In this document: piece after piece, positions 32,688-51,241 of the stretch
How the letters are laid out: each line of letters begins with the position of its first letter
How positions within the stretch are numbered: position 1 is the first letter of the stretch
DNA from: a bacterium
Lineage (GTDB): Bacteria; Patescibacteriota; Minisyncoccia; UBA6257; JAUSGH01
Direction: 5' to 3'
Assembly (NCBI GenBank): GCA_030649055.1
Contig: JAUSGH010000003.1
Location: forward strand, 354 to 64,353
Length of the DNA stretch: 64,000 nucleotides
The notes under the pieces: generated by a model
What the model was told of the DNA's origin: nothing
Database searches by the model: none
Seen by the model: only the letters and a program-made list of their open reading frames with translations
Program-made: the position numbers and the translations under genes

Positions 32688-32769
32688 GCCGAGGTGGCGA
32701 AATGGCAGACGCACTGGCTTCAGGTGCCAGCGATCGCAAGGTCATGGGGGTTCGACTCCCCCCCTCGGC
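32688..32769 (+). tRNA. tRNA-Leu (anticodon CAG), long variable arm
   Basis: gccgagg acceptor; anticodon stem ctggc/gccag with loop ttCAGgt; T-arm ggggg-ttcgact-ccccc; no encoded CCA. Confidence 0.9.
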
Positions 32770-32930
32770 ACAGAGTTACTCACAAATTAACAAATGCGCA
32801 GGAAAAAATAATTAACCAACGTCAAACAGGTCGGGAGTCGAACGGGAAAGGGGTCGGGGAAACGGGAGTTTCCCCGTGGCGGAAATACTAAAACCGATGG
32901 GTTTTAGAGCGCAGCGAAGCGAGCAGTGAG

Positions 32931-38012: not shown

Positions 38013-38160
38013 CGGCAACGCATACAGCCCGGGAGGTTATGAACCTCCCGGGCTGTTCACTTTTTTACAACAGCAAGACGTCTTGTTAAAGCCGCGTAGG
38101 GATGCTACAGTGTAGCCAGCTTGTGACAGGAAATTCGAACGTCTTTTGTAGGAGGCACGA

Positions 38161-38845: not shown

Positions 38846-38955
38846 CAGACGCAAACGACAGCCCGAGGGGTTCCATACCTCCCGGGCTGTTCACTTTTTC
38901 ACCGGCTTTTGTTACTATAGTTACAGTTCGCAAATTCGTAGTCCACTTTTTTAAG

Positions 38956-39459
38956 GAGTCCGTCGTGAAACAGCGCACAGGAGTGATAGCGGTGGCAGGA
39001 CTTGTCATCCTCATCACTATGGTCATCCTGACCTTCCCGAAGTTCAAACGGGACGTGGAGAGTCTCGGTGAGCCACAACGGAAAATTCAGCAGGAGCTCG
39101 CGGAACTGAAAAAGCTGGTCGCGCCCGAACCGCCGCACTGCGTGTTCGATGATGTCCCTGCGAAGCTCCAGAAGGGTATGACCGAAGACGAAGCGCTCGC
39201 GGCAGTCAAGTCCTGCAACGTCCCAGGAAAGCCGAAGCAGGACTTCTCCCGCGACGAGGTGAACCCCTTGACGGGAGAGAACATCCGCAGCAGAGAGATC
39301 CTCTATGGAATGTACATCATCAGCGGACGGAACGACTGGATGATGGAGCTTGGCCTCTACTTCGCCGACGGCAAACTCTACGACGTGGCCCGCAGGAGTT
39401 GGCGCAGCATGGAATGGAAGCGGACCCATTGGCAACCGGAGATTCCGAAGAACAAGTGA
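38956..39459 (+). CDS. membrane-anchored protein with BamE-like motif, array member 4
   Basis: aaggagtccgtcGTG; QKGMTEDEALAAV; terminator at 39469..39509. Confidence 0.6.
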   Translation, partial: ESVVKQRTGVIAVAGLVILITMVILTFPKFKRDVESLGEPQRKIQQELAELKKLVAPEPPHCVFDDVPAKLQKGMTEDEALAAVKSCNVPGKPKQDFSRDEVNPLTGENIRSREILYGMYIISGRNDWMMELGLYFADGKLYDVARRSWRSMEWKRTHWQPEIPKNK

Positions 39460-39574
39460 TGCACGCAACAGCCCGAGAGGTATGGAACCTCTCGGGCTGT
39501 TCACTTTTTTACAAGCTCTGTTACGATAGTTATAGTTCGCAATTTGCGACCTCTCTCCAAACGGAGGACTGACC

Positions 39575-40159: not shown

Positions 40160-40264
40160 TGCTGTCGAAGCACAAACAGCCCGCAGGCATTTCGCCTCGG
40201 GCTGTTCACGTTTTCACCCGCACCCCACACTTTGCGCCACGCTTCTCCTCCACTAATCGCACAC

Positions 40265-40306
40265 AACTGCTTCCTAACTTCACGATCGTGAAGTTAGGAA
40301 GCAGTT
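40265..40306. repeat. 42-bp perfect palindrome aactgcttcctaacttcacgatcgtgaagttaggaagcagtt (copy 1)
   Basis: Seen directly; identical copy at 40946..40987. Confidence 0.9.
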
Positions 40307-40342: not shown

Positions 40343-40927
40343 TCAAATCACTTGCCGCAATGTACCGCTCTTGCTGATTTCGAAAATCTCAACGAGCCGA
40401 AGAAGGCCAAGTTTTTCAAGCTCGCCGATGAATGACTCGGGTAACAGCACCTTCCCCACCCAAACGCTCTTCTGTAACATGATAAATCCCAACGTACGCA
40501 GCACATCGCGCAGCCAATCGCGTTTCCGACGTTCGCGTTCCGGAATATCAAAAACGACAATGTTCAGACGAGGGGCTGCTTTGACCACCGCGGAATCAGC
40601 TAAACGTTGCTTCGCGGTACGAAATTGAAGCGCCACCTTACGTTGTAGCCCTTTTTCTGTTGTATGCCACCGCGTATGCGCTTGTGATACGTCGCTTACA
40701 ATGAGTCCCTGTTGCCGCAATTTACAGACGGCATTATAGATCTGACGGCGCGAGAAATCTTTCACGGCGCGCATTTCACGCTCCGCGACACGCTTCCCGA
40801 GCTCGCGCCGCATGCGGCCATATGAGGCACCATAACCAGCGGACAAAAAGGCGCCGGCAAAATCACCGATGCCTCCGACAAATCCGGTGATACTCTCTAA
40901 AATTTTTAACGTGATATCCCCGTTCAT
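40343..40927 (-). CDS. putative transcriptional regulator: N-terminal winged-helix, C-terminal PaaX_C/Cas2-like fold
   Basis: RQIYNAVCKLRQQGLIV wHTH-like; IVVFDIPERERRKRDWLRDVLRTLGFIMLQKSVWVGK. Confidence 0.5.
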   Translation of the reverse strand: MNGDITLKILESITGFVGGIGDFAGAFLSAGYGASYGRMRRELGKRVAEREMRAVKDFSRRQIYNAVCKLRQQGLIVSDVSQAHTRWHTTEKGLQRKVALQFRTAKQRLADSAVVKAAPRLNIVVFDIPERERRKRDWLRDVLRTLGFIMLQKSVWVGKVLLPESFIGELEKLGLLRLVEIFEISKSGTLRQVI

Positions 40928-40945
40928 TGTTTTTCATCCTACCAC

Positions 40946-40987
40946 AACTGCTTCCTAACTTCACGATCGTGAAGTTAGGAAGCAGTT
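40946..40987. repeat. 42-bp perfect palindrome (copy 2)
   Basis: Identical to 40265..40306. Confidence 0.9.
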
Positions 40988-41019: not shown

Positions 41020-41490
41020 TCACTGCGCCTCCACAACGCTCGATCTCAGTTTCGCAACGATTTCTTTGCGGACATTAGCGGGAACTTCCTGCATACGATC
41101 TCTATTATAGTGCTGGCCGAATTCCGGGTCGGTAAACCGCGTACGGGAAATCTCAACGGTATGGTTATAGCGCGGACGCGCGTGCCAGTGGACATGCGGG
41201 TTAGGAATCGCCGCGCGGAAAGAGTCGTTCATCATGCACGTCCAGTTAAACATAGTGGCGTCGAATGATTTCTTCGCCGCCGCTTCAAACTTTTTCACGA
41301 TGCTTCCGAAATCCGCAACCTCCTCCGCGGTTACGTCCGACAAACTCGCCGCGTGACGCTTTAACGCCACAATACTCCGCCCGACGTATGATTGCTCTGT
41401 TGCCAACCACACCATCCAAAACGGCGTTTCAAAAATAAGATTTTCATCTTTCGCGGAAAACTGACAGAATTTGCATTCGTTGTTTGCCAT
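41020..41490 (-). CDS. HIT family hydrolase
   Basis: Histidine triad NPHVHWHARP. Confidence 0.82.
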   Translation of the reverse strand: MANNECKFCQFSAKDENLIFETPFWMVWLATEQSYVGRSIVALKRHAASLSDVTAEEVADFGSIVKKFEAAAKKSFDATMFNWTCMMNDSFRAAIPNPHVHWHARPRYNHTVEISRTRFTDPEFGQHYNRDRMQEVPANVRKEIVAKLRSSVVEAQ

Positions 41491-41558: not shown

Positions 41559-44500
41559 TTACTTCTTCCGTATCCCCAGCCATACCTCATTTTCTTCGAC
41601 TTTAGTTGAAATCTCGGCATCAAACTTTTCGCTCTTCTTAAATTCAACTTCCGACAAGCTGGTTTCGTTTTTGAAATCCTTAAGGCGCGCCTCAATAACG
41701 GCCTTAAGCGCCGGCGGAAACATTACCGAAAGAATGGCGCGCTCGCCCGGCTTGTAGTCCGCTGTCTGACGCAACTCCTGCACCATGCGCACGAGCTCAC
41801 GGAAAAGTCCCTCATTGCGCAACTCCGGCGTAATTTTTGTATCAAGCTCCACGTCCCCCGCCATGCTTGAATCAATAACAATTTCTTTCACGTTCACCTC
41901 ATCTTTGAGAATATCCAGAAGTTCGCTTGCTTTCTTGCTTTCTTGCTTTATTGCTTTATTGATTCTGAGCGCCGCCAGCGGTTGCCGCACCTTAATCCCC
42001 GCCTCCGCCCGTTTTGCCAAACCGATACTCGCGAGCTTACGTACCTCCTCCATCGCGGCAACAAGCGCGTCGTCCGAAAGTTTTGCATCCGTCTCCGGCC
42101 AATCCGTGAGATGAACCGAGCTTTGTTTTTTTGCTTTATTGCTTTCTTGATTCATTGAAGCATACAGCGCCTCCCCAAAAAACGGCGTAAATGGCGCGAT
42201 AAGCTTAGAGAGGGTACCGAGCACCTCGCGCAGCGTAGCGGAGGCGGCTTCATAGTCGCCTTTTTCCGGACGTTGAAATCTGCGCCGCGAACGCCGGATG
42301 TACCACCGCGAAAGATCGTCAACAAACAATTCAATCGCCCGCGCCGCCTCGTTCATTTCATAGGAGTCAAGTTTTGCGGTCACGACACCGATAAGCGACT
42401 GGAGCTTCGCCAAAATCCAGCGATCTAGCACATTAACAGATGACAATTGACCTTCGACAATTGACTTAGCCCCATACGTGTCTAAAAATACGAACGAGTT
42501 ATATAAAATCGCGAAAAATCGCCGGTAGGTTTTCAATAAGTCATTCTCATCGTACCGCTTCGGCTCACCCGCGGGATTCACGGTATAGAAATACCAACGC
42601 ACAACATCCGCACCGTATTTCTGAATCATCGCCATCGGTTCCACGACGTTGCCTTTGGATTTGGACATTTTGAGCCCGTTTTTATCCAGCACGTGTCCCA
42701 GCGAAACCACATTTTTATAGGGCGCGCCGCGTCCCAAAAGCACCGACACGGCAAGGAGCGTGTAAAACCAGCCACGCGTCTGGTCAATTCCTTCAGTAAT
42801 GTAATCCGCCGGAAACAGCGTGCCGTTGTCCACTTCTTTTTTATGCTCAAACGGATAATGCCACTGCGCATAGGGCATCGCTCCCGAGTCAAACCACACA
42901 TCCGCCACTTCTTTCACTCTTGTCATGCGCGATTTGCACTTCGCACAACGCAAATACAGCTCGTCCACATACGGCCGGTGCACATCAAGATTCCCCGCCG
43001 CGTCATATGGATAGTTACGCAACACAAGCGACCGATAATTGCCGGGTTGGATGTAGTCAAGCGCTAAGACTTCCTCATCAGAGAGTCCGTTCAGTTTTCC
43101 TTCAAGTACCCACAACGGATCACCGTGGCTTACCACCACAATACGCTTACCTACATACTTCGCATTCAACTCCCGCAAAAATGCGAGCATGCGCGCTTGT
43201 ACCTCGTGGAGATTTTCACCTCCTTCGGGCGTTTGTGTAAATTCCAATACCGATCTCCCACCAAAAATCGCCCGATACTCCTCAACGGTTTTGCCGTTAT
43301 AGACGCCGGTATTTATTTCACCGAGACGATCATCGTAGATGACAGGAATCTTGCCGAGCGTAGCTAAAAGCACCTGCACCGTTTGCCTAGTACGGTGATA
43401 GGGCGAGGCAACAATAAGGTCAATTTTTTCTTTCTTTAATTTCTTCGCGACACCTTCAACGTCCGCAATACCGCGCTTCGTAAGCTCTGATTTCTTTTCT
43501 ATTTTAGTACCTGAAGCAATCCACCCTTCTACGTTATGCGTCGCCTCGCCATGCCGCACGGCAAAAAATGTATTTCTATTAAATGCGAATTCATCCAAGT
43601 CGGCAAACGAAGAAATCACGCGCGTTGCGTCGCATTTTTCGCACTCCCAGATCGGCAAGGGAGTCCCCCAATACCGCTCGCGCGAAATCGCCCAATCTTT
43701 CACCTCGCGGATCCACTCGCCAAAACGCCCTTCCTTCAAATGCGCCGGCACCCAATTGATTTCTTTATTCGCCGCGAGAAGTTTTGCGCGCATCTTGCTC
43801 ATCTCAATAAACCAGGAGGTCCGCGCGAAGTAGATCAAAGGGCTTGAACAGCGCCAGCAAAACGGATAGTCGTGCTCCACGCTCCCCTCGGAATACATAA
43901 GACCACGCGACACTAAGTCCACGACGATGTCTTTGTCGGCCGATTTAATAAACCGCCCGCTGCCCGGAAGGTTGCCCAGTACCATACCGCGCTCGTCAAT
44001 GGTGCGCGGGATTTCATCGGTGGTCAGTTTCCACGTTTCGGAAATAAGCCGATAGTCATCTTCGCCGAACGCCGGGGCAATGTGCACCAATCCCGTTCCC
44101 TCGCCGGTTTGCACGAAATCGGCAGAAAGAACGGCATAAAATTGCTTTGTTGCTTTGTTGCTTTGTTGCTTTATCGGATAGAGCCCTTCATACCGAAGTC
44201 CCACCAACTTTTTCCCCAAAAGCTGTTCCACGGCCTCCGGTACCATGCCATTGACCGTCGGCGGCGCGTTGTACGACCAAAGATATTCATCACCGACTTT
44301 ATATTTGGTGTAGGTCAGTTTCGGATTGACTGCCACCGCGACATTCGACGGCAGTGTCCACGGAGTGGTGGTCCATACTAATAGAAATTCTTTATTCGCT
44401 GAGCTTGTCGAAGCGCTACCTTTATTTCTGATTTTAAACTTCACATACACCGACGGATCCTTCGTCAGCTTATATGCTTGCGCAAGCTCGTGGCTGGAAA

Positions 44501-45098
44501 GCGAAGTTTGACACCGCGGGCACCACGGCACAACTTTGTACAACTTCTTCAATAAACCTTTTTTCGCAATCTGCGCCATCACCCACCAAAGCGATTCCAC
44601 AAAATCATTCGCGTAGGTAATATACGGATGCTCGGAATCAATCCAAAAACCGATACGGTCACTGAACCGCTCCCATTCATTTTTATATTTCCAGATTGAC
44701 TCCTTTGCCCGCGCGTTAAACGCCGCGATACCAAACGTTTCAATCTCTTGTTTGTTTTTTAATCCAAGCGCTTTTTCCACCTCAATCTCAACGGGAAGAC
44801 CATGCGTGTCCCACCCCGCGCGCCGAGGAACATAAAACCCGCGCATGGTTTTGTAGCGCAGAATAATATCCTTAAACGTCCGCGTTTCCGCGTGCCCGAT
44901 GTGCGGCAAACCATTCGCCGTCGGCGGTCCTTCAAAAAACACGAAGTGTTTTTTACCCTGCCTGCCCGCCGAAGCCTTGGCGGAGGCGGGAGCCTGTCGA
45001 AGGGCTACCGATTTTTTGAAAATCTCATTCTCCGCCCAAAACTTAAGGACTTTCTCTTCCAACTCGGGCAGATTGAATTGCTTGAGACCTCTTAGCAT
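41559..45098 (-). CDS. ileS: isoleucyl-tRNA synthetase with an inserted histidine-phosphatase (PGAM-like) domain and in-frame repeat insertions
   Basis: PPTANGLPHIGHA, GWDTHGLPVE and KMSKS; RHGEATHN...VSHGD domain between the zinc knuckle and WFDSG; VALRQAPASAKASAGRQG insert. Confidence 0.88.
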   Translation of the reverse strand: MLRGLKQFNLPELEEKVLKFWAENEIFKKSVALRQAPASAKASAGRQGKKHFVFFEGPPTANGLPHIGHAETRTFKDIILRYKTMRGFYVPRRAGWDTHGLPVEIEVEKALGLKNKQEIETFGIAAFNARAKESIWKYKNEWERFSDRIGFWIDSEHPYITYANDFVESLWWVMAQIAKKGLLKKLYKVVPWCPRCQTSLSSHELAQAYKLTKDPSVYVKFKIRNKGSASTSSANKEFLLVWTTTPWTLPSNVAVAVNPKLTYTKYKVGDEYLWSYNAPPTVNGMVPEAVEQLLGKKLVGLRYEGLYPIKQQSNKATKQFYAVLSADFVQTGEGTGLVHIAPAFGEDDYRLISETWKLTTDEIPRTIDERGMVLGNLPGSGRFIKSADKDIVVDLVSRGLMYSEGSVEHDYPFCWRCSSPLIYFARTSWFIEMSKMRAKLLAANKEINWVPAHLKEGRFGEWIREVKDWAISRERYWGTPLPIWECEKCDATRVISSFADLDEFAFNRNTFFAVRHGEATHNVEGWIASGTKIEKKSELTKRGIADVEGVAKKLKKEKIDLIVASPYHRTRQTVQVLLATLGKIPVIYDDRLGEINTGVYNGKTVEEYRAIFGGRSVLEFTQTPEGGENLHEVQARMLAFLRELNAKYVGKRIVVVSHGDPLWVLEGKLNGLSDEEVLALDYIQPGNYRSLVLRNYPYDAAGNLDVHRPYVDELYLRCAKCKSRMTRVKEVADVWFDSGAMPYAQWHYPFEHKKEVDNGTLFPADYITEGIDQTRGWFYTLLAVSVLLGRGAPYKNVVSLGHVLDKNGLKMSKSKGNVVEPMAMIQKYGADVVRWYFYTVNPAGEPKRYDENDLLKTYRRFFAILYNSFVFLDTYGAKSIVEGQLSSVNVLDRWILAKLQSLIGVVTAKLDSYEMNEAARAIELFVDDLSRWYIRRSRRRFQRPEKGDYEAASATLREVLGTLSKLIAPFTPFFGEALYASMNQESNKAKKQSSVHLTDWPETDAKLSDDALVAAMEEVRKLASIGLAKRAEAGIKVRQPLAALRINKAIKQESKKASELLDILKDEVNVKEIVIDSSMAGDVELDTKITPELRNEGLFRELVRMVQELRQTADYKPGERAILSVMFPPALKAVIEARLKDFKNETSLSEVEFKKSEKFDAEISTKVEENEVWLGIRKK

Positions 45099-45763: not shown

Positions 45764-47356
45764 CTACATCTTCTCCGGCGCGCTCACGCCAAGCACGCGC
45801 AAGACATTTTCCAACACCATGCGCGCCGCCTCAACCAATTGCAATCGTTCAGTAACCACCGCGCCACTGGAGTCAATCACGCGTTCTTTCTCATAAAAGT
45901 CGTGGAATGCGCGTGCAAGATCCGTCGCGTACCGTGTCAGTCGATGTACTTCGTAATCCGCCGCGGTTTGCGCAATGACATCCGGAAACTCCGCCATTGT
46001 TTTAAGGAGTTTCAGCTCGCTTTCTTCCTTGAGCCCCGTTATGTTTGCTTCTTTGTTTCTTTGCTTCTTTGCTTTCTCCAAAACGCTCCCCGCCCGAACG
46101 TACGCGTACTGCACATAATATACCGGATTTTTCACCGAGCGCTCTTTCGCAAGGTCAAGATCAAAGTCCATGTGACTGCCGGCGGAGTTCATCAAAAAGA
46201 AAAACCGCGCGGCATCTGCCCCCACTTCCTCCAACAGCTCATCCATCGTCACAAACTCGCCCTTGCGTTTGGACATGCGCACCTCTTTACCGCCGGAAAC
46301 AAGCCGCACCAGCTGCGTGATAATAATCTTCAGTCGCTCCGGCGCAACACCAAGCGCTGCGACACCTTTTTTTATTTGCTCGGCGTAGCCGTGGTGATCC
46401 GCGCCCCAAATATCAATCGCAACGTCAAATTTACGCTTAAAAAGCTTATCGTAGTGATACGCGAGATCAGGAAGAAAATATGTGGGGGTATTATCTGACT
46501 TAATCAAAACTTTATCGCCAAACCAGACCGCGCCCTCTTTCCGCTCCACGAGTCCTTTCTGTTCTAAGAACGCAAGCATTTTTTCCAATTCGCCGCCGGC
46601 GCGCAAATTTTCTTCCTCCGAAAAGAACACGTCATATATAATTCCCGCTTTTTTTAATGACGCCTTGATAGATTTCAACAACAACGCAACCGCTTGTTTG
46701 CCGGTTTTGCCTTTCAATTCTTTGATGTATTCTCCTTTATAATATTCCTCTTTTTCCGGCAACTTCCCTTCGGCGGCTTGGATGCTTTCGCCCAACAGCC
46801 GCACTTGGTTACCGGCATCGTTCACGTAATACTCGCGTGTTACCTTGTGTCCCGCGCACTCTAAAACATTAGCAAGCACGTCACCCAAAAATCCTCCGCG
46901 TCCGTTCGCCATCGTCAAAGGGCCCGTCGGATTTGCCGAAACAAACTCAACGTTTATTTTTAGTCCCTGCCTGCCCGCCGAAGCCTTGGCGGAGGAGGGA
47001 GCCTGTCGAAGGGCTACCGCTCCATATTTTGCTTTTTGTTTTAACACCGCCAGAAGTTCCTCGCGAAGCACATCCGGCGCAAGTGTAAAATTGATAAATC
47101 CCGGCGCGGCAGCAACCACCTGCGTGAAAAACTTTCCTTTATCTTTCTCCGCTATTTCTTTTGCTAAACTTTCCGCAACCGCCATCGGCGGCATTTTTCG
47201 CTCTTTTGCCAATCGAAACGCAACGTTTGACGAATAATCGCCGAACTTCGCATCCGCGGTTTTCTCCAACGGCCAGTCGTTCCCAGTTAATTCCTTGAGA
47301 TGCTGTTGAATTTTGGTAAGCATGAAATAAAATTTATCTGTATAAATCGTGATCAT
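45764..47356 (-). CDS. argS: arginyl-tRNA synthetase
   Basis: ANPTGPL...YVNDAGNQ hallmark; carries the same 54-nt in-frame insert (VALRQAPSSAKASAGRQG). Confidence 0.92.
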   Translation of the reverse strand: MITIYTDKFYFMLTKIQQHLKELTGNDWPLEKTADAKFGDYSSNVAFRLAKERKMPPMAVAESLAKEIAEKDKGKFFTQVVAAAPGFINFTLAPDVLREELLAVLKQKAKYGAVALRQAPSSAKASAGRQGLKINVEFVSANPTGPLTMANGRGGFLGDVLANVLECAGHKVTREYYVNDAGNQVRLLGESIQAAEGKLPEKEEYYKGEYIKELKGKTGKQAVALLLKSIKASLKKAGIIYDVFFSEEENLRAGGELEKMLAFLEQKGLVERKEGAVWFGDKVLIKSDNTPTYFLPDLAYHYDKLFKRKFDVAIDIWGADHHGYAEQIKKGVAALGVAPERLKIIITQLVRLVSGGKEVRMSKRKGEFVTMDELLEEVGADAARFFFLMNSAGSHMDFDLDLAKERSVKNPVYYVQYAYVRAGSVLEKAKKQRNKEANITGLKEESELKLLKTMAEFPDVIAQTAADYEVHRLTRYATDLARAFHDFYEKERVIDSSGAVVTERLQLVEAARMVLENVLRVLGVSAPEKM

Positions 47357-50829: not shown

Positions 50830-50930
50830 ACATGTAGTATAATTTTTATTTCTCGTCTTTTCCATGCCCCTTCCCCGTTCAACTCTCGCAAACAAAAAGA
50901 AAACCGCCTGCTCAGGCGGTTTTCTTTTTG

Positions 50931-51241
50931 TGGAGATGGTGAGAGTTGAACTCACATCCGAATATTTTCTTCGAAAACGTCTACAAGCATAGTTCTAGAA
51001 AATCTAGGACGATTTGCTCTTGTGTTTAATGTTGCCTACCAGAACGTCTCAGCAACACGGTCCCTGTGTATAACACCGGTGATGCGCCGCAAGGGCATTG
51101 GCGCGCCGATGGCATTCGCCTATTAGGCGTATGCTAACGCAACATTTCTGTTGGCAGTTATAGATTTTGACACAGTTCACGAGTGTGCCTCCTCGGCTTG
51201 CAATTTTTGAAGAGCGATATCCGTCGAAGCCCGTCATCCCC
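50931..51241 (-). ncRNA. ssrA: tmRNA (SsrA)
   Basis: 5' GGGGAUGACGGGCUUCGACGG; 3' T-arm gugag-UUCAACU-cucac then CAUCUCC-A with a G3-U70 pair; tag frame GCC AAC AGA AAT GTT GCG TTA GCA TAC GCC TAA TAG (ANRNVALAYA); terminator at 50899..50922. Confidence 0.85.

What the first reader, a model, noticed from the sequence alone, without database searches (positions are those of the whole stretch)
42300..43250. IleRS carries an inserted, apparently intact histidine-phosphatase (PGAM-like) domain
Between the IleRS zinc knuckle (PIWECEKCDATRV) and the WFDSG segment, the single ORF contains about 180 aa with both catalytic signatures of histidine phosphatase branch 1: RHGEATHN at the start and VVVSHGDP about 150 aa later. 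Canonical IleRS has only about 60-90 aa here. There are no stop codons or intein splicing motifs, so this is a domain insertion within an essential aminoacyl-tRNA synthetase. A phosphatase embedded in IleRS could act on a nucleotide or tRNA-end substrate.
Basis: partly seen in the sequence, partly recalled or inferred. Interest (0 to 1): 0.65.

Follow-up and report, generated by a model that had tools for sequence, protein, structure and literature searches.

The report
Active phosphatase domain nested inside IleRS
The essential enzyme that loads isoleucine onto tRNA in this tiny-genome (CPR/Patescibacteria) bacterium carries a complete, apparently working phosphatase inserted in one of its surface loops. 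The same phosphatase is either a separate gene directly upstream of this enzyme's gene or is inserted at other positions in it across related lineages, a partnership I found described nowhere and whose purpose is unknown.

Summary
One 1179-aa ORF (window 41559-45098, minus strand) is a full type-2 IleRS. A histidine-phosphatase branch-1 domain (Pfam E 6e-34) occupies residues ~507-693 (window ~43020-43580). It sits at the tip of the CP3 zinc hairpin, where T. thermophilus IleRS has 10 residues.

- **Domain integrity:** the catalytic residues R515, H516, R569 and H658 are invariant in 119 orthologs, and E594 is E or D in all. The AlphaFold model is confident (pLDDT 94).
- **Type of enzyme:** it resembles the PhoE/PspA phosphatases. 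The substrate-binding residues of cofactor-dependent phosphoglycerate mutase are absent.
- **Distribution:** the insert is present in at least 186 species genomes of Paceibacteria.
- **Split form:** in the Nealsonbacteria-like lineage, IleRS lacks the insert. The orthologous 190-aa phosphatase is a separate gene immediately upstream of ileS in 6 of 6 loci.
- **Other CPR lineages:** in Gracilibacteria and Peregrinibacteria, phosphatase domains sit at two other IleRS loops, with up to 4 copies. They sometimes occur with GNAT or kinase domains. In one case an unrelated HAD phosphatase takes the place.
- **Other fusion partners:** ArgRS, Sua5 and ATP sulfurylase, all enzymes that form adenylates and release PPi.

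My conclusion is that this is a dedicated phosphohydrolase partner of IleRS. The substrate is unknown, and PPi or an adenosine-phosphate species are the leading guesses. Ten full-text searches found no published description.

The parts
41559..45098 (-). ileS ORF, 1179 aa: type-2 (eukaryote/archaea-like) isoleucyl-tRNA synthetase carrying the insert
   Evidence: ORF list. NCBIfam TIGR00392 ileS scores 864.7 bits against a cutoff of 621.4. Pfam finds tRNA-synt_1, Anticodon_1 and DUF5915. The full-length AF2 model has pLDDT 90.3 and pTM 0.85. Its best PDB matches are IleRS2 8C8V and T. thermophilus 1ILE (TM 0.94 normalised to the target).
43656..45098 (-). IleRS N-terminal part: first half of the Rossmann fold (HIGH at 44892-44903), CP core, CP1 editing domain, CP2
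   Evidence: Pfam tRNA-synt_1 covers residues 17-504. The HIGH, CPRC and CWRC motifs are located. The editing-domain motifs WTTTPWT and GTGxVHxAP are invariant in 119 orthologs.
43569..43655 (-). N-terminal arm of the CP3 zinc hairpin (PIWECEKC...; Cys486 and Cys489 at 43632-43643)
   Evidence: Aligns to T. thermophilus IleRS residues 414-477, including Cys461 and Cys464. Coordinates verified.
43020..43580 (-). Inserted histidine-phosphatase (His_Phos_1) module, residues ~507-693. The Pfam core is 512-681. The clean natural deletion in P0106 removes residues 511-687 (window 43038-43568).
   Evidence: Pfam E 6.1e-34. The stand-alone 193-aa ortholog P0141 aligns end to end with residues 509-691. 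AF2 domain model: pLDDT 93.8, pTM 0.90. Foldseek top hits are PhoE 1H2E and PspA 4IJ5/4IJ6. Deletion boundaries come from P0106.
43533..43556 (-). RHGEATHN motif: Arg515, nucleophile His516 (43551-43553), His521, Asn522
   Evidence: R515 and H516 are present in 119/119 orthologs, H521 in 115/119 and N522 in 96/119.
43392..43394 (-). Arg569, the second phosphate-pocket arginine (SPYxRT motif)
   Evidence: 119/119 orthologs. Conserved in all site-A, site-B, site-C and stand-alone groups.
43317..43319 (-). Glu594, the predicted general acid (RLxE motif). It aligns with Glu89 of E. coli dPGM (Met1 numbering).
   Evidence: E in 116 and D in 3 of 119 orthologs. Alignment to E. coli GpmA.
43116..43139 (-). 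VVVSHGDP motif with the second catalytic His658 (43125-43127)
   Evidence: H658 in 119/119 and P661 in 119/119 orthologs.
42897..43037 (-). C-terminal arm of the CP3 zinc hairpin (NYPYD..DVHRPYVD..CAKC; Cys718 and Cys721 at 42936-42947)
   Evidence: Aligns to T. thermophilus IleRS from residue 488, including Cys502 and Cys504. C718 and C721 are present in 120/120 sequences.
42657..42896 (-). Second half of the Rossmann fold, from WFDSG (42882-42896) to KMSKS (42657-42671). It contains the loop HYPFEHKKEVDNGTLFPADY (42801-42860), which is 'site B' for phosphatase insertions in other CPR IleRS.
   Evidence: Motif positions. Site mapping by E-INS-i alignment.
42423..42479 (-). Variable loop TYGAKSIVEGQLSSVNVLD before the anticodon-binding domain. 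This is 'site C', where Gracilibacteria-type IleRS carry their phosphatase domain. It is empty here.
41565..42425 (-). Anticodon-binding domain (41973-42425) and type-2 C-terminal domain DUF5915 (41565-41852)
   Evidence: Pfam Anticodon_1 covers residues 892-1042 and DUF5915 covers 1083-1178.
45764..47356 (-). argS (ArgRS), the conserved upstream neighbour. In the split lineage the phosphatase gene sits between argS and ileS.
   Evidence: Pfam. argS lies upstream and co-oriented in 48/80 related loci. The order argS-HP-ileS is seen in L088, L091, L093, L094 and L095; L092 holds only HP followed by ileS.

Best explanation
**What it is (shown).** The gene encodes the organism's housekeeping type-2 isoleucyl-tRNA synthetase. 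A complete ~187-residue histidine phosphatase of the short PhoE/PspA-like kind is nested at the tip of its CP3 zinc hairpin, a peripheral and structurally variable loop of the catalytic domain. The phosphatase keeps the full catalytic set: Arg515 and His516 of the RHG motif, Arg569, Glu594 and His658. It folds as an autonomous domain.

It is the fused form of a stand-alone phosphatase gene. In the Nealsonbacteria-like sister lineage that gene lies immediately upstream of an insert-less ileS, in the order argS-phosphatase-ileS.

**How it works (inferred).** It should hydrolyse a phosphate ester or anhydride through a phospho-His516 intermediate. The two arginines and His658 would hold the phosphoryl group, and Glu594 would protonate the leaving group. 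It is a phosphatase rather than a phosphoglycerate mutase. IleRS does not need it for aminoacylation as such, because one close relative has lost it cleanly.

**Why it is there (inferred).** The phosphatase-IleRS pairing recurs in three forms: as a neighbouring gene, as one to four inserted copies at three different loops, and once with a HAD phosphatase in the same place. The phosphatase is therefore most likely a dedicated accessory activity of the synthetase, not a passenger. Position does not matter, and the same subfamily is also fused to ArgRS, Sua5/TsaC and ATP sulfurylase. All of these make an adenylate from ATP and release pyrophosphate. I therefore favour a small diffusible substrate tied to adenylate chemistry.

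My rough odds for the substrate, all unproven:
- pyrophosphate removal: about 0.25
- an adenosine-phosphate species such as AMP, or a 3'-phosphoadenosine moiety: about 0.2
For: **Domain identity and integrity**
- Pfam E 6.1e-34.
- Catalytic residues are invariant in 119 orthologs and kept in all 181 domains from every architecture class.
- AF2 model: pLDDT 93.8. It matches PhoE, PspA and dPGM folds at TM ~0.79.
- Profile versus PDB: PspA 8.5e-27, PhoE 5e-25.

**Insertion site**
- T. thermophilus IleRS residues 477 to 488 correspond to query residues 502 to 704.
- The Nealsonbacteria-like IleRS P0293 has 7 residues where the query has 199.
- CP3 is peripheral and variable according to PMC7191050 and PMC7955072.

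**Not a mutase**
- The E. coli dPGM residues R90, Y92, K100, R116, R117 and N186 are not conserved (reference sequence verified).

**Dispensable for the host fold**
- P0106 is a clean in-frame loss nested among insert-bearing relatives.

**Split and fused pair**
- The stand-alone 188-199-aa phosphatase lies 1-20 nt upstream of, or overlaps, an insert-less ileS in 6/6 loci examined from either side.
- It aligns end to end with the insert.
- Its nearest relatives are inserted domains, at 55-61% identity.

**Recurrence**
- Site classes among the 238 classifiable of 292 long proteins: A 157, C 39, B+C 12, B 6, A+A 5, A+C 2, A+B+C 2, A+B 1, none 14.
- A HAD_2/Put_Phosphatase domain sits at site B instead of the histidine phosphatase in P0357.

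**Other partners**
- ArgRS, Sua5 and ATP sulfurylase.

**Chemical precedent for P-O-P cleavage in this superfamily**
- PMC7926622 and PMC11836120.
Against: - No enzymology exists for any member, and no branch-1 histidine phosphatase that I know of is a physiological pyrophosphatase.
- I could not test whether these genomes lack canonical pyrophosphatases. At least one Parcubacterium has an H+-PPase (PMC5220378).
- The ArgRS and IleRS fusions could follow simply from gene adjacency. Only two proteins (the Sua5 and ATP-sulfurylase fusions) support the 'adenylate-forming partner' pattern independently.
- CPR IleRS also accepts clearly unrelated inserts: DUF559 endonuclease, a Y1 transposase domain, GNAT and P-loop kinases. 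The host loops may therefore just be permissive landing sites.
- The insert evolves faster than the synthetase core: 46% identity to the query against 68-70%.
Confidence: 0.55

Rival explanations
1. tRNA-end healing. [quoted passage not shown] Damaged or toxin-modified tRNA could then be charged. This would be a repair counterpart of the CP1 editing domain.
For: - The host binds tRNA, and a hydrolase nested in the Rossmann fold that acts on the tRNA 3' end has a precedent in CP1 (established knowledge).
- Some relatives combine the phosphatase with a P-loop AAA_33/Zeta-toxin-like kinase, a kinase-plus-phosphatase pairing reminiscent of polynucleotide kinase-phosphatase end-healing enzymes.
- The ATP-sulfurylase fusion sits next to a sulfotransferase, where a 3'-phosphoadenosine (PAP) phosphatase would make sense. 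PAP chemically resembles a 3'-phosphorylated A76.
- The subfamily ends right after the last strand and so seems to lack a C-terminal tail, which would suggest an open active site. The stand-alone forms are 188-195 aa, against 207-211 aa for PhoE/PspA.
Against: - The phosphatase works as a separate protein in one lineage and sits at three different loops in others, including site C next to the anticodon-binding domain. That is hard to reconcile with a fixed geometry at the acceptor end.
- CP3 is not reported to contact tRNA in IleRS-tRNA complexes: the acceptor stem makes only a few contacts, and those are with the catalytic domain (PMC11685878).
- Site-B and site-C domains are mildly acidic (pI 6.2-6.7) and the query's insert is neutral (pI 7.2).
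- I know of no histidine-phosphatase family member that acts as an RNA 3'-phosphatase.
Confidence: 0.15
2. Passenger enzyme. This would be an ordinary housekeeping small-molecule phosphatase that became embedded in IleRS only because its gene lay next to ileS and the CP3 loop tolerates insertions. Fusion would give co-expression and nothing more.
For: - The argS-phosphatase-ileS adjacency provides a trivial route to fusion, and an ArgRS-phosphatase read-through fusion also exists.
- CPR IleRS loops accept unrelated domains such as DUF559, a transposase-like domain and GNAT.
- One stand-alone ortholog, P0160, sits next to secA rather than ileS.
- The insert can be lost.
- The insert is less conserved than the synthetase core.
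Against: - Three sequence-distinct phosphatase lineages occupy three different IleRS loops in different CPR classes, with up to 4 copies per protein.
- A non-homologous HAD phosphatase occupies the same loop in one relative.
- Tight linkage or overlap with ileS was found in 6/6 split loci.
- Such recurrence with one host protein is not expected for an unrelated passenger.
Confidence: 0.2
3. Countermeasure module. The phosphatase would protect IleRS from attack. It might reverse inhibitory phosphorylation of the synthetase by HipA/HipT-like kinases, or it might destroy a phosphorylated IleRS inhibitor. The GNAT and kinase inserts seen in relatives would work alongside it.
For: - IleRS is a classic antibiotic target.
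- 97 of 119 orthologs carry a [GA]xHH motif instead of HIGH. I recall that motif as the one linked to mupirocin hyper-resistance in IleRS2; the title of PDB entry 8C8W names a mupirocin hyper-resistant HIGH-motif mutant.
- GNAT and P-loop kinase domains, typical drug-modifying enzymes, are co-inserted in relatives.
- Parcubacterial HIT proteins tested elsewhere detoxify aminoacyl-adenylate antibiotics (bioRxiv 10.1101/2020.03.04.977132).
- Protein phosphatases such as SixA, Sts-1 and PGAM5 exist in this superfamily (established knowledge).
Against: - I know of no IleRS inhibitor that carries a phosphomonoester.
- There is no evidence for such kinases in these genomes.
- The HIT gene next to ileS in the window is not a conserved neighbour (0/80 loci).
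- The Sua5 and ATP-sulfurylase fusions are not explained.
Confidence: 0.07
4. Hidden glycolytic enzyme. The insert would be the cofactor-dependent phosphoglycerate mutase of these bacteria, filling the PGM gap reported for some Parcubacteria clades.
For: - The best NCBIfam hit is the short archaeal dPGM model NF038349 (83.9 bits).
- Jaffe et al. 2020 report that PGM is absent in several shallow Parcubacteria clades and raise the possibility of divergent enzymes (PMC7304191).
Against: - The NCBIfam score is far below the 225-bit cutoff. The RNase H/acid-phosphatase and PspA models score almost the same.
- The mutase-specific substrate residues are replaced or deleted: R90 by L/I/V, Y92 by T/C/G, K100 by V/I, R116 and R117 by a gap, and N186 by D.
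- The closest solved relatives are phosphatases.
Confidence: 0.03
5. Not a real or functional feature. It would be an assembly chimera, a frameshifted pair of genes, an intein-like selfish element, or a decayed and inert domain.
For: The sequence comes from a metagenome-assembled genome. One fetched locus (L036) shows a broken ORF.
Against: - The break in L036 is a run of 100 N.
- 119 of 120 homologs and at least 186 species genomes share the same in-frame architecture.
- The module length is constant, with the 505-700 region spanning 193-209 aa.
- The catalytic residues are invariant.
- There is no intein Pfam hit, and the junctions (..NRNT|FFAV.. and ..QPGN|YRSL..) lack splicing residues.
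Confidence: 0.01

Closest known systems
PhoE (Geobacillus stearothermophilus broad-specificity phosphatase, PDB 1H2E/1EBB) and PspA (metal-independent phosphoserine phosphatase of Hydrogenobacter thermophilus, PDB 4IJ5)
   Same: - Same short (~200 aa) branch-1 histidine-phosphatase fold.
- Same catalytic core: RHG, the second Arg, Glu, and the His of the xHG motif.
- These are the best sequence matches (E 8.5e-27 and 5e-25 with the family profile) and the best fold matches (TM ~0.77-0.80).
   Different: - Only ~25% identity.
- No NCBIfam equivalog cutoff is reached: PspA model 73 bits against 350.
- The domain is nested inside another enzyme.
- About 15-20 residues shorter at the C-terminus, so it seems to lack a C-terminal tail.
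- His replaces the usual Trp before the conserved Asn (RHGEAxHN against RHxExxWN).
- There is an extra loop (ASGPEKGKxxS) after the first helix.
Type-2 IleRS (Priestia megaterium IleRS2, PDB 8C8U/8C8V; Thermus thermophilus IleRS, PDB 1ILE)
   Same: - The host protein is an ordinary member. It has the same domain order, zinc ligands (T. thermophilus Cys461/464/502/504 correspond to Cys486/489/718/721), editing motifs, KMSKS and DUF5915 C-terminal domain.
- TM 0.82-0.94 normalised to the target.
   Different: About 200 residues at the CP3 hairpin tip, where those enzymes have 5-10.
CP1 editing domain of class Ia synthetases
   Same: It is a hydrolytic domain inserted into the Rossmann fold of the same enzyme. 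This is the only well-understood case of a second catalytic domain nested in IleRS (established knowledge).
   Different: - Different fold and chemistry: aminoacyl-ester hydrolysis against phosphoryl transfer.
- CP1 is universal and its substrate is known. The phosphatase is lineage-specific, movable between loops, and can be a separate gene.
NCBIfam NF040702 'ileS_w_GNAT' (IleRS containing an N-acetyltransferase domain)
   Same: - A curated precedent for IleRS with an extra enzymatic domain.
- Relatives found here (for example P0297 and P0308, from Gracilibacteria and Peregrinibacteria) combine GNAT with the histidine phosphatase in one IleRS.
   Different: - The window protein has no GNAT domain and scores 303 bits against a cutoff of 1999.
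- No curated model exists for the phosphatase-bearing form.
Bifunctional RNase H/acid phosphatase (Mycobacterium tuberculosis Rv2228c type, NCBIfam NF005567)
   Same: - A branch-1 histidine phosphatase fused to an enzyme of nucleic-acid metabolism.
- It is the second-best NCBIfam hit for the insert (77 bits).
   Different: - It is a terminal fusion, not a nested insertion.
- The score is far below the cutoff of 326.
- As far as I know, the reason for that fusion is also unresolved.
ATP sulfurylase-pyrophosphatase fusion proteins of some eukaryotes (recalled from the literature, not checked here)
   Same: - An adenylate-forming, PPi-releasing enzyme physically joined to an enzyme that removes a phosphate-containing by-product.
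- One member of this phosphatase subfamily is itself fused to ATP sulfurylase (P0147).
   Different: - There the partner is a canonical family I pyrophosphatase.
- Here it is a histidine phosphatase whose PPase activity is only a hypothesis.

Membership tests
Histidine phosphatase superfamily, branch 1 (Pfam PF00300 His_Phos_1) | Profile match above the curated threshold | tested here: met
   117.8 bits against a cutoff of 21.7, E 6.1e-34, residues 512-681 covering profile positions 2-170 of 194.
Histidine phosphatase superfamily, branch 1 (Pfam PF00300 His_Phos_1) | RHG motif with the nucleophilic His and its preceding Arg at the end of the first strand | tested here: met
   R515 and H516 are present in 119/119 orthologs and conserved in all 181 domains of every architecture apart from a single R-to-K change at position 515.
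Histidine phosphatase superfamily, branch 1 (Pfam PF00300 His_Phos_1) | Second Arg, second His and an acidic proton donor completing the phosphate pocket | tested here: met
   R569 in 119/119, H658 in 119/119, and E594 as E in 116 plus D in 3. The correspondence to E. coli dPGM R62, H184 and E89 comes from the alignment.
Histidine phosphatase superfamily, branch 1 (Pfam PF00300 His_Phos_1) | Alpha/beta fold of the family | tested here: met
   AF2 model pLDDT 93.8. Foldseek probability is 1.00 and TM 0.72-0.80 to PhoE, PspA, dPGM, CobC and GpgP.
Histidine phosphatase superfamily, branch 1 (Pfam PF00300 His_Phos_1) | Phosphohydrolase or phosphotransfer activity through a phospho-histidine intermediate | not testable with these tools
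   Needs enzymology and an H516A control.
Cofactor-dependent phosphoglycerate mutase (dPGM, GpmA type) | Substrate-binding residues for the glycerate carboxylate and second phosphate (E. coli R90, Y92, K100, R116, R117, N186; Met1 numbering) | tested here: not met
   These positions are L/I/V, T/C/G, V/I, gap, gap and D in the family. The reference sequence was verified as identical to PDB 1E58.
Cofactor-dependent phosphoglycerate mutase (dPGM, GpmA type) | Score above a curated dPGM model cutoff | tested here: not met
   NF038349 dPGM_arch scores 83.9 against 225, and TIGR01258 scores 43.5 against 81.7. All other dPGM equivalog models are far below cutoff.
Named short phosphatases (PspA, PhoE-like phosphoserine phosphatase 1, CobC alpha-ribazole phosphatase, SixA) | Score above the NCBIfam equivalog cutoff | tested here: not met
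   PspA 73 against 350, PRK13463 64 against 277, CobC TIGR03162 64.2 against 162.9, SixA 29.8 against 74.5. The insert resembles them but belongs to none.
Isoleucyl-tRNA synthetase (TIGR00392 ileS), type 2 | Equivalog-level profile score | tested here: met
   864.7 bits against a cutoff of 621.4, in two stretches interrupted by the insert.
Isoleucyl-tRNA synthetase (TIGR00392 ileS), type 2 | Class I signature motifs, the CP1 editing motifs and the type-2 C-terminal domain | tested here: met
   HIGH at residues 66-69 and KMSKS at 810-814. WTTTPWT and GTGxVHxAP are invariant. DUF5915 is present. The best folds are IleRS2 and T. thermophilus IleRS.
Isoleucyl-tRNA synthetase (TIGR00392 ileS), type 2 | Aminoacylation of tRNA(Ile), and being the only ileS copy in the genome | not testable with these tools
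   Only a 64-kb window is available, and there is no biochemistry.
NF040702 ileS_w_GNAT | GNAT domain present and score above cutoff | tested here: not met
   303 bits against 1999, and Pfam finds no GNAT domain.
Intein or other protein-splicing insertion | Hint/intein domain and splice-junction residues (Cys/Ser at the N-junction; His-Asn followed by Cys/Ser/Thr at the C-junction) | tested here: not met
   No intein family appears in the Pfam scan. The junctions read NRNT|FFAV and QPGN|YRSL.

The most novel reading that the evidence does not exclude
IleRS of CPR bacteria would be a modular platform whose embedded phosphatase(s) act directly on the tRNA(Ile) 3' end. Examples would be removing a 3'-phosphate, or the pyrophosphate added by toxic alarmone-synthetase-type enzymes, or otherwise undoing an attack on isoleucine charging. 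This would be a new, synthetase-resident repair and defence layer comparable in concept to CP1 editing. The GNAT, kinase and HAD inserts seen in sister lineages would be variations on the same theme.
Probability: 0.15. Interest if true: 0.92.

Novelty: new variant of a known kind. Interest (0 to 1): 0.75.

Why it matters
Aminoacyl-tRNA synthetases are among the most conserved enzymes, and a second catalytic domain inside the catalytic core is known essentially only for editing. Here a whole class of bacteria carries an apparently active phosphatase inside IleRS, in at least 186 species-level genomes.

Related lineages show the same partnership in three other forms:
- as a translationally coupled neighbour gene;
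- as multiple copies at other loops;
- with a non-homologous phosphatase in the same place.

Split, fused and displaced forms of one pairing are the strongest kind of genomic evidence for a functional link. Yet no function connecting a phosphatase to isoleucine charging is known.

Working it out could have several consequences:
- It could reveal a new requirement of translation in ultra-small, host-dependent bacteria, such as by-product removal, tRNA-end repair or resistance.
- It would correct annotation, because these proteins are labelled only 'class I tRNA ligase family protein'. They may also be miscounted as phosphoglycerate mutases in metabolic reconstructions.
- It would give protein engineers three natural permissive insertion sites in a class I synthetase.

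Tried and rejected
**Literature.** Ten full-text searches found no paper describing a phosphatase domain in IleRS. This is absence in the searched library only.

**3D geometry.** I predicted the full-length structure. Model coordinates are not exposed, so the distance between His516 and the synthetic or editing sites could not be measured. The afdb50 fold library was unavailable.

**dPGM hypothesis.** Considered because of the NCBIfam top hit and the reported PGM gap in Parcubacteria. Rejected on substrate-residue grounds.

**Intein or selfish element.** Rejected for the phosphatase.

**Assembly artefact.** Rejected.

**Paralog search.** I looked for a free-standing paralog near ileS in 747 kb of related flanks. 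None was found beyond the IleRS inserts. The later representative search did find the stand-alone orthologs.

**HIT gene downstream of ileS.** Tested as a possible functional neighbour. It is not conserved (0/80 loci), so it was dropped as evidence.

**Charge analysis for RNA binding.** Inconclusive. Site-A and stand-alone domains are basic, site-B and site-C domains are mildly acidic, and the query insert is neutral.

**Gene absence.** Whether the host genomes lack canonical pyrophosphatase or PGM genes could not be tested.

**Tree.** The neighbour-joining tree of phosphatase domains was not bootstrapped. I rely on the group-wise identities and not on individual branches.

Full report
**1. 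Observation**

The window has one uninterrupted ORF on the minus strand, 41559..45098, of 1179 aa.
- PIWECEKC, residues 482-489 (window 43632-43655)
- RHGEATHN, 515-522 (43533-43556)
- VVVSHGDP, 654-661 (43116-43139)
- CAKC, 718-721
- WFDSG, 735-739 (42882-42896)
- KMSKS, 810-814

Pfam finds tRNA-synt_1 split into two parts. Between them lies His_Phos_1 (PF00300) at residues 512-681, with E 6.1e-34. Anticodon_1 and the type-2 C-terminal domain DUF5915 follow.

The stated interval, 42300-43250, is shifted by about 350-400 nt and covers only the last third of the insert, which lies at ~43020-43580. GC content and skew show no break at the insert.

**2. The host protein is a normal housekeeping IleRS**

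- It passes the NCBIfam ileS equivalog threshold, 864.7 against 621.4 bits.
- It keeps HIGH, KMSKS and the editing-domain motifs, which are invariant across 119 orthologs.
- The full-length AlphaFold model is confident: pLDDT 90.3, pTM 0.85.
- That model superposes on Priestia megaterium IleRS2 (8C8V) and on T. thermophilus IleRS (1ILE, TM 0.94 normalised to the target).

**3. Insertion site**

- Sequence alignment to T. thermophilus IleRS runs to query residue 502 (T. thermophilus 477) and resumes at query 704 (T. thermophilus 488). Alignment to P. megaterium IleRS2 breaks between residues 477 and 483 of that protein.
- An insert-less relative, P0293, has 7 residues where the query has 199.
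- The flanking cysteines Cys486/489 and Cys718/721 correspond to the T. thermophilus zinc ligands Cys461/464 and Cys502/504.
- The insert therefore sits at the tip of the zinc hairpin of the CP3 subdomain.
- Published structures describe CP3 as a peripheral subdomain with a different topology in each IleRS studied, zinc-binding only in Thermus (PMC7191050, PMC7955072). In human IARS1 it serves as a protein-docking surface (PMC13439101).
- In the yeast IleRS-tRNA complex the acceptor stem makes only a few contacts, and those are with the catalytic domain. CP3 is not mentioned as a tRNA contact (PMC11685878).

**4. The insert is an intact phosphatase module**

*Conservation.* In a MAFFT alignment of the 120 best homologs:
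- R515, H516, R569, E628, R636 and H658 are present in 119/119 insert-bearing sequences.
- E594, the predicted general acid, is E in 116 and D in 3.
- N522 is present in 96.
- Module length is nearly constant: the 505-700 region spans 193-209 residues.
- Identity to the query is 46% in the insert, against 68-70% in the Rossmann halves. That is the same level as the C-terminal domain, so the insert is under purifying selection although it evolves faster than the core.

*Structure.* A domain-only AlphaFold model is very confident (pLDDT 93.8, pTM 0.90). Its best solved neighbours are PhoE, PspA, dPGMs, GpgP and CobC, at TM ~0.72-0.80. With a family profile, the best PDB sequence matches are PspA (8.5e-27) and PhoE (5e-25).

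*Family assignment.* No NCBIfam equivalog is reached. The top scores are archaeal short dPGM at 83.9 against 225, RNase H/acid phosphatase at 77 against 326, and PspA at 73 against 350.

*Mutase or phosphatase.* I aligned E. coli GpmA, whose sequence I verified as identical to PDB 1E58. The catalytic core aligns. The residues I recall as mutase-specific substrate binders (R90, Y92, K100, R116, R117, N186; Met1 numbering) are L/I/V, T/C/G, V/I, gap, gap and D. The module therefore looks like a phosphatase, not a mutase.

*Distinctive features:*
- His521 occupies the position where PhoE, PspA and dPGM have Trp.
- There is an extra ASGPEKGKxxS loop.
- The chain ends or leaves right after the last strand, so it seems to have no C-terminal tail.

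**5. Distribution and loss**

- 119 of the 120 best homologs (53-89% identity) carry PF00300. Source names include Harrisonbacteria, Zambryskibacteria, Liptonbacteria and Minisyncoccota/Paceibacterota.
- A scan of one genome per species with the family motif [SG]HGDPLW[VMI][LM] matched 198 stretches, of which 186 were confirmed. The named organisms include Harrison-, Colwell-, Lipton-, Azam-, Niyogi- and Ryanbacteria, Paceibacter and Tyrphobacter.
- In 67 of the 80 fetched loci the motif lies in an ORF longer than 1000 aa. The other 13 ORFs are shorter; most are flagged as cut by contig ends, and the two that were not (L036, L035) proved to be a run of N and a contig start.
- P0106 (1005 aa) lacks residues 511-687 precisely and in frame. 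In the rest of the protein it is closer to insert-bearing proteins (69%) than most insert-bearing proteins are to each other. It is therefore a secondary loss. This shows the synthetase fold tolerates removal of the module.

**6. The split form**

A full-library profile search with the domain found 273 cluster representatives at E<=1e-30. The top 150 include IleRS fusions and also dozens of complete 180-215-aa proteins. These start with Met at the domain's first strand and end after its last strand, and they share the family motifs.

Genomic contexts for the phosphatase proteins:
- P0141, P0149 and P0146: the phosphatase gene lies immediately upstream of an insert-less ileS of 938-955 aa. It either overlaps it by 10 nt or is separated by 8-10 nt. 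argS lies upstream of it in the first two.
- P0132: directly downstream of argS.
- P0126: near recO.
- P0160: elsewhere, next to secA.

I then started from the IleRS side. Three insert-less IleRS were chosen without reference to the phosphatase (P0420, P0432 and P0486, the last from a Nealsonbacteria MAG). All three have a 192-199-aa His_Phos_1 gene 1-20 nt upstream, in the order smpB / argS / phosphatase / ileS / small ORF / recO. The insert-less clade is named Nealsonbacteria/Paceibacterota where names exist.

Orthology of the split and fused forms:
- P0141 aligns end to end (residues 2-190) with query residues 509-691, at 37% identity and E 2e-42.
- The ileS-adjacent stand-alone proteins have inserted domains as nearest relatives, at 55-61% identity.
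- The two kinds interleave in a neighbour-joining tree (not bootstrapped).
- The window keeps the same argS-ileS synteny, and argS is upstream and co-oriented in 48/80 related loci.

Split and fused forms therefore carry orthologous phosphatases. This is a classic Rosetta-stone pair. I could not determine which state is ancestral.

**7. The same partnership elsewhere in the CPR, at other positions**

Some representatives contain two to four His_Phos_1 domains. A search with one of them, P0199, found more than a hundred IleRS carrying PF00300 from Gracilibacteria, Peregrinibacteria and Peribacteria.

I classified sites using the landmarks RYWGxPxPxW, WFDSG and KMSKS and an E-INS-i alignment. 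The phosphatase occupies these sites, in query numbering:
- Site A: CP3 tip, after ~505.
- Site A2: just after the second CxxC, at ~723.
- Site B: the loop after WFDSG, at ~753-757.
- Site C: the loop before the anticodon-binding domain, at ~876-885.

Counts among the 292 long proteins in hand, of which 54 lacked recognisable landmarks:

| Sites occupied | Proteins |
|---|---|
| A only | 157 |
| C only | 39 |
| B+C | 12 |
| B only | 6 |
| A+A | 5 |
| A+C | 2 |
| A+B+C | 2 |
| A+B | 1 |
| none | 14 |

- Domains at each site form their own sequence group, with 37-42% identity within groups and 27-29% between them.
- All groups keep the catalytic residues.
- Relatives also carry GNAT, AAA_33/Zeta-toxin-like P-loop kinase and DUF559 domains. 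NCBI curates a model for the GNAT form, NF040702.
- In P0357 a HAD-superfamily phosphatase occupies site B instead of the histidine phosphatase. It matches HAD_2 and also PF06888, and has the FDFDG motif.

**8. Other partners of this phosphatase subfamily**

Among the top hits, six proteins longer than 260 aa have no IleRS similarity. Pfam shows:
- one ArgRS with a C-terminal phosphatase (P0197);
- one Sua5/YrdC (TsaC) plus phosphatase (P0171);
- one phosphatase-PUA-ATP sulfurylase (P0147), encoded next to a sulfotransferase in a polysaccharide cluster;
- three double-phosphatase proteins.

IleRS, ArgRS, TsaC and ATP sulfurylase all transfer AMP from ATP and release pyrophosphate. That last statement is established biochemistry, not something tested here.

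**9. Mechanistic reading**

*Shown:*
- An intact, autonomous phosphatase module under selection.
- Orthology between the fused and split forms.
- Recurrent and position-independent association with IleRS.
- Occupation of the same loop by a non-homologous HAD phosphatase in one relative.

*Inferred:*
- The phosphatase is a dedicated accessory of the synthetase.
- Its substrate is probably small and diffusible, because geometry is not conserved.
- The substrate is probably connected to adenylate chemistry.

*Candidate substrates:*
- Pyrophosphate is my leading candidate. It is a product shared by all partners. Fusion of ATP sulfurylase to a pyrophosphatase is known in some eukaryotes (recalled, not checked). 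HAD enzymes include PPi-specific phosphatases (BT2127, AtPPsPase1), and a histidine-phosphatase-superfamily protein with PPase activity has been reported (PMC7926622). The superfamily also cleaves the beta-phosphate of inositol pyrophosphates (PMC11836120).
- An adenosine-phosphate substrate (AMP, PAP-like 3'-phosphoadenosine) is the next candidate.

None of this is demonstrated. I could not test whether these genomes lack canonical pyrophosphatases.

**10. Rivals**

- *tRNA-end healing* remains possible. It is disfavoured by the position independence, by the lack of reported CP3-tRNA contacts, and by the non-basic charge of many domains.
- *A pure passenger* is disfavoured by the recurrence at three loops and by the HAD phosphatase at site B. 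It is supported by the evident permissiveness of CPR IleRS loops and by the trivial adjacency route.
- *A resistance or counter-attack role* fits the GNAT and kinase co-inserts and the widespread [GA]xHH signature motif (97/119). No known IleRS inhibitor has a phosphomonoester.
- *dPGM* is rejected on residues.
- *Artefact and intein* are rejected.

**11. Novelty**

The architecture is visible in public databases. It appears in precomputed Pfam hits and in JGI's automatic name 'isoleucyl-tRNA synthetase/phosphohistidine phosphatase SixA/...GNAT' for P0297. Most records are simply called 'class I tRNA ligase family protein'.

Ten full-text searches found no description or functional study. I rate it a new variant of a known kind, namely a synthetase with an accessory domain. 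It has unusually strong comparative evidence for a functional link whose nature is unknown.

Noticed in passing
window 15703, 15738, 21965, 23233, 35833, 41502, 41537, 44401, 44990, 46999, 51268, 61759 (12-nt cores). Longer copies at 44385-44423 and 44949-45010 (inside ileS) and 46958-47019 (inside argS).: - A family of small hairpin repeats has a conserved 11-12-nt loop (GAGCYTGTCGAA) and covarying 4-5-bp stems (tcct/agga, cgct/agcg, ccct/aggg and others), usually followed by TAC.
- There are 12 exact cores against 1.8 expected by chance.
- Most copies are intergenic. Three are translated in frame inside aminoacyl-tRNA synthetase genes: IleRS residues ~30-50 (ALRQAPASAKASAGRQG) and ~226-238 (KGSASTSSANKEF), and ArgRS (ALRQAPSSAKASAGRQG, 94% DNA identity to the first IleRS copy).
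- The two IleRS copies coincide with the only segments of pLDDT below 50 in the model.
- The first copy is absent from the 89%-identical ortholog P0002, so it is a recent insertion.
- This is reminiscent of Rickettsia palindromic elements that insert into ORFs.
   Followed up: partly
window 44892-44903 (IleRS residues 66-69): - The query has a canonical HIGH motif, as do 22 of the 119 orthologs.
- The other 97 orthologs have [GA]xHH (consensus GIHH).
- I recall that motif as the altered signature linked to mupirocin hyper-resistance in type-2 IleRS. The titles of PDB entries 8C8W and 8C9F refer to HIGH-motif mutants.
- This suggests selection from IleRS-targeting antibiotics in this lineage.
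   Followed up: partly
window 40262-40306 and 40943-40987, flanking ORF 40343-40927 (-): - Two 100% identical 45-nt sequences, each itself a near-perfect palindrome (CACAACTGCTTCCTAACTTCACGATCGTGAAGTTAGGAAGCAGTT), bracket a 194-aa gene.
- That gene has a PaaX central/Cas2-like domain.
- This could be a small mobile or regulated cassette.
   Followed up: no
window 41020-41490 (-): - A 156-aa HIT-family protein (HVHWH motif) is encoded directly downstream of ileS, separated by two inverted copies of the hairpin repeat.
- Parcubacterial HIT proteins have been shown elsewhere to detoxify aminoacyl-adenylate antibiotics (bioRxiv 10.1101/2020.03.04.977132).
- The adjacency to ileS is not conserved (0/80 related loci).
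   Followed up: yes
Related proteins P0124, P0170, P0199, P0202, P0223, P0226, P0297, P0298, P0301, P0357, P0358, P0374, P0309, P0380: IleRS of Gracilibacteria, Peregrinibacteria and Peribacteria is a hotspot for nested domains, and proteins reach 1400-1860 aa. The nested domains include:
- up to four histidine-phosphatase copies;
- GNAT acetyltransferase;
- AAA_33/Zeta-toxin-like kinase;
- HAD phosphatase;
- an alpha/beta hydrolase;
- DUF559 (Vsr-like endonuclease), in one case inside the CP1 region;
- a Y1 transposase-like domain.
   Followed up: partly
Related proteins P0197, P0171, P0147; locus L097 5001-6707: - The same phosphatase subfamily is also fused to ArgRS (at the C-terminus), to Sua5/YrdC (the tRNA t6A pathway) and to ATP sulfurylase.
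- The ATP-sulfurylase fusion is followed by a sulfotransferase gene, with no APS kinase visible nearby.
   Followed up: partly
locus L081 355-3372 (protein P0106, assembly GCA_964361805.1): One close relative has lost the phosphatase module by a clean in-frame deletion of the equivalent of residues 511-687. No phosphatase gene is visible on its 6.6-kb contig.
   Followed up: yes
window 38014-38073, 38848-38907, 39458-39517: Three copies of a ~60-nt GC-rich hairpin followed by a T-run (CAGCCCGGGAGG...CCTCCCGGGCTGTTCACTTTTTT). They look like a shared intrinsic terminator after three consecutive small genes of unknown function.
   Followed up: no
window 50928-51241 (-): tmRNA gene (Rfam RF00023, 147 bits). 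tRNA genes lie at 2293-2364 and 32688-32770. In the split-lineage loci smpB lies next to argS.
   Followed up: no
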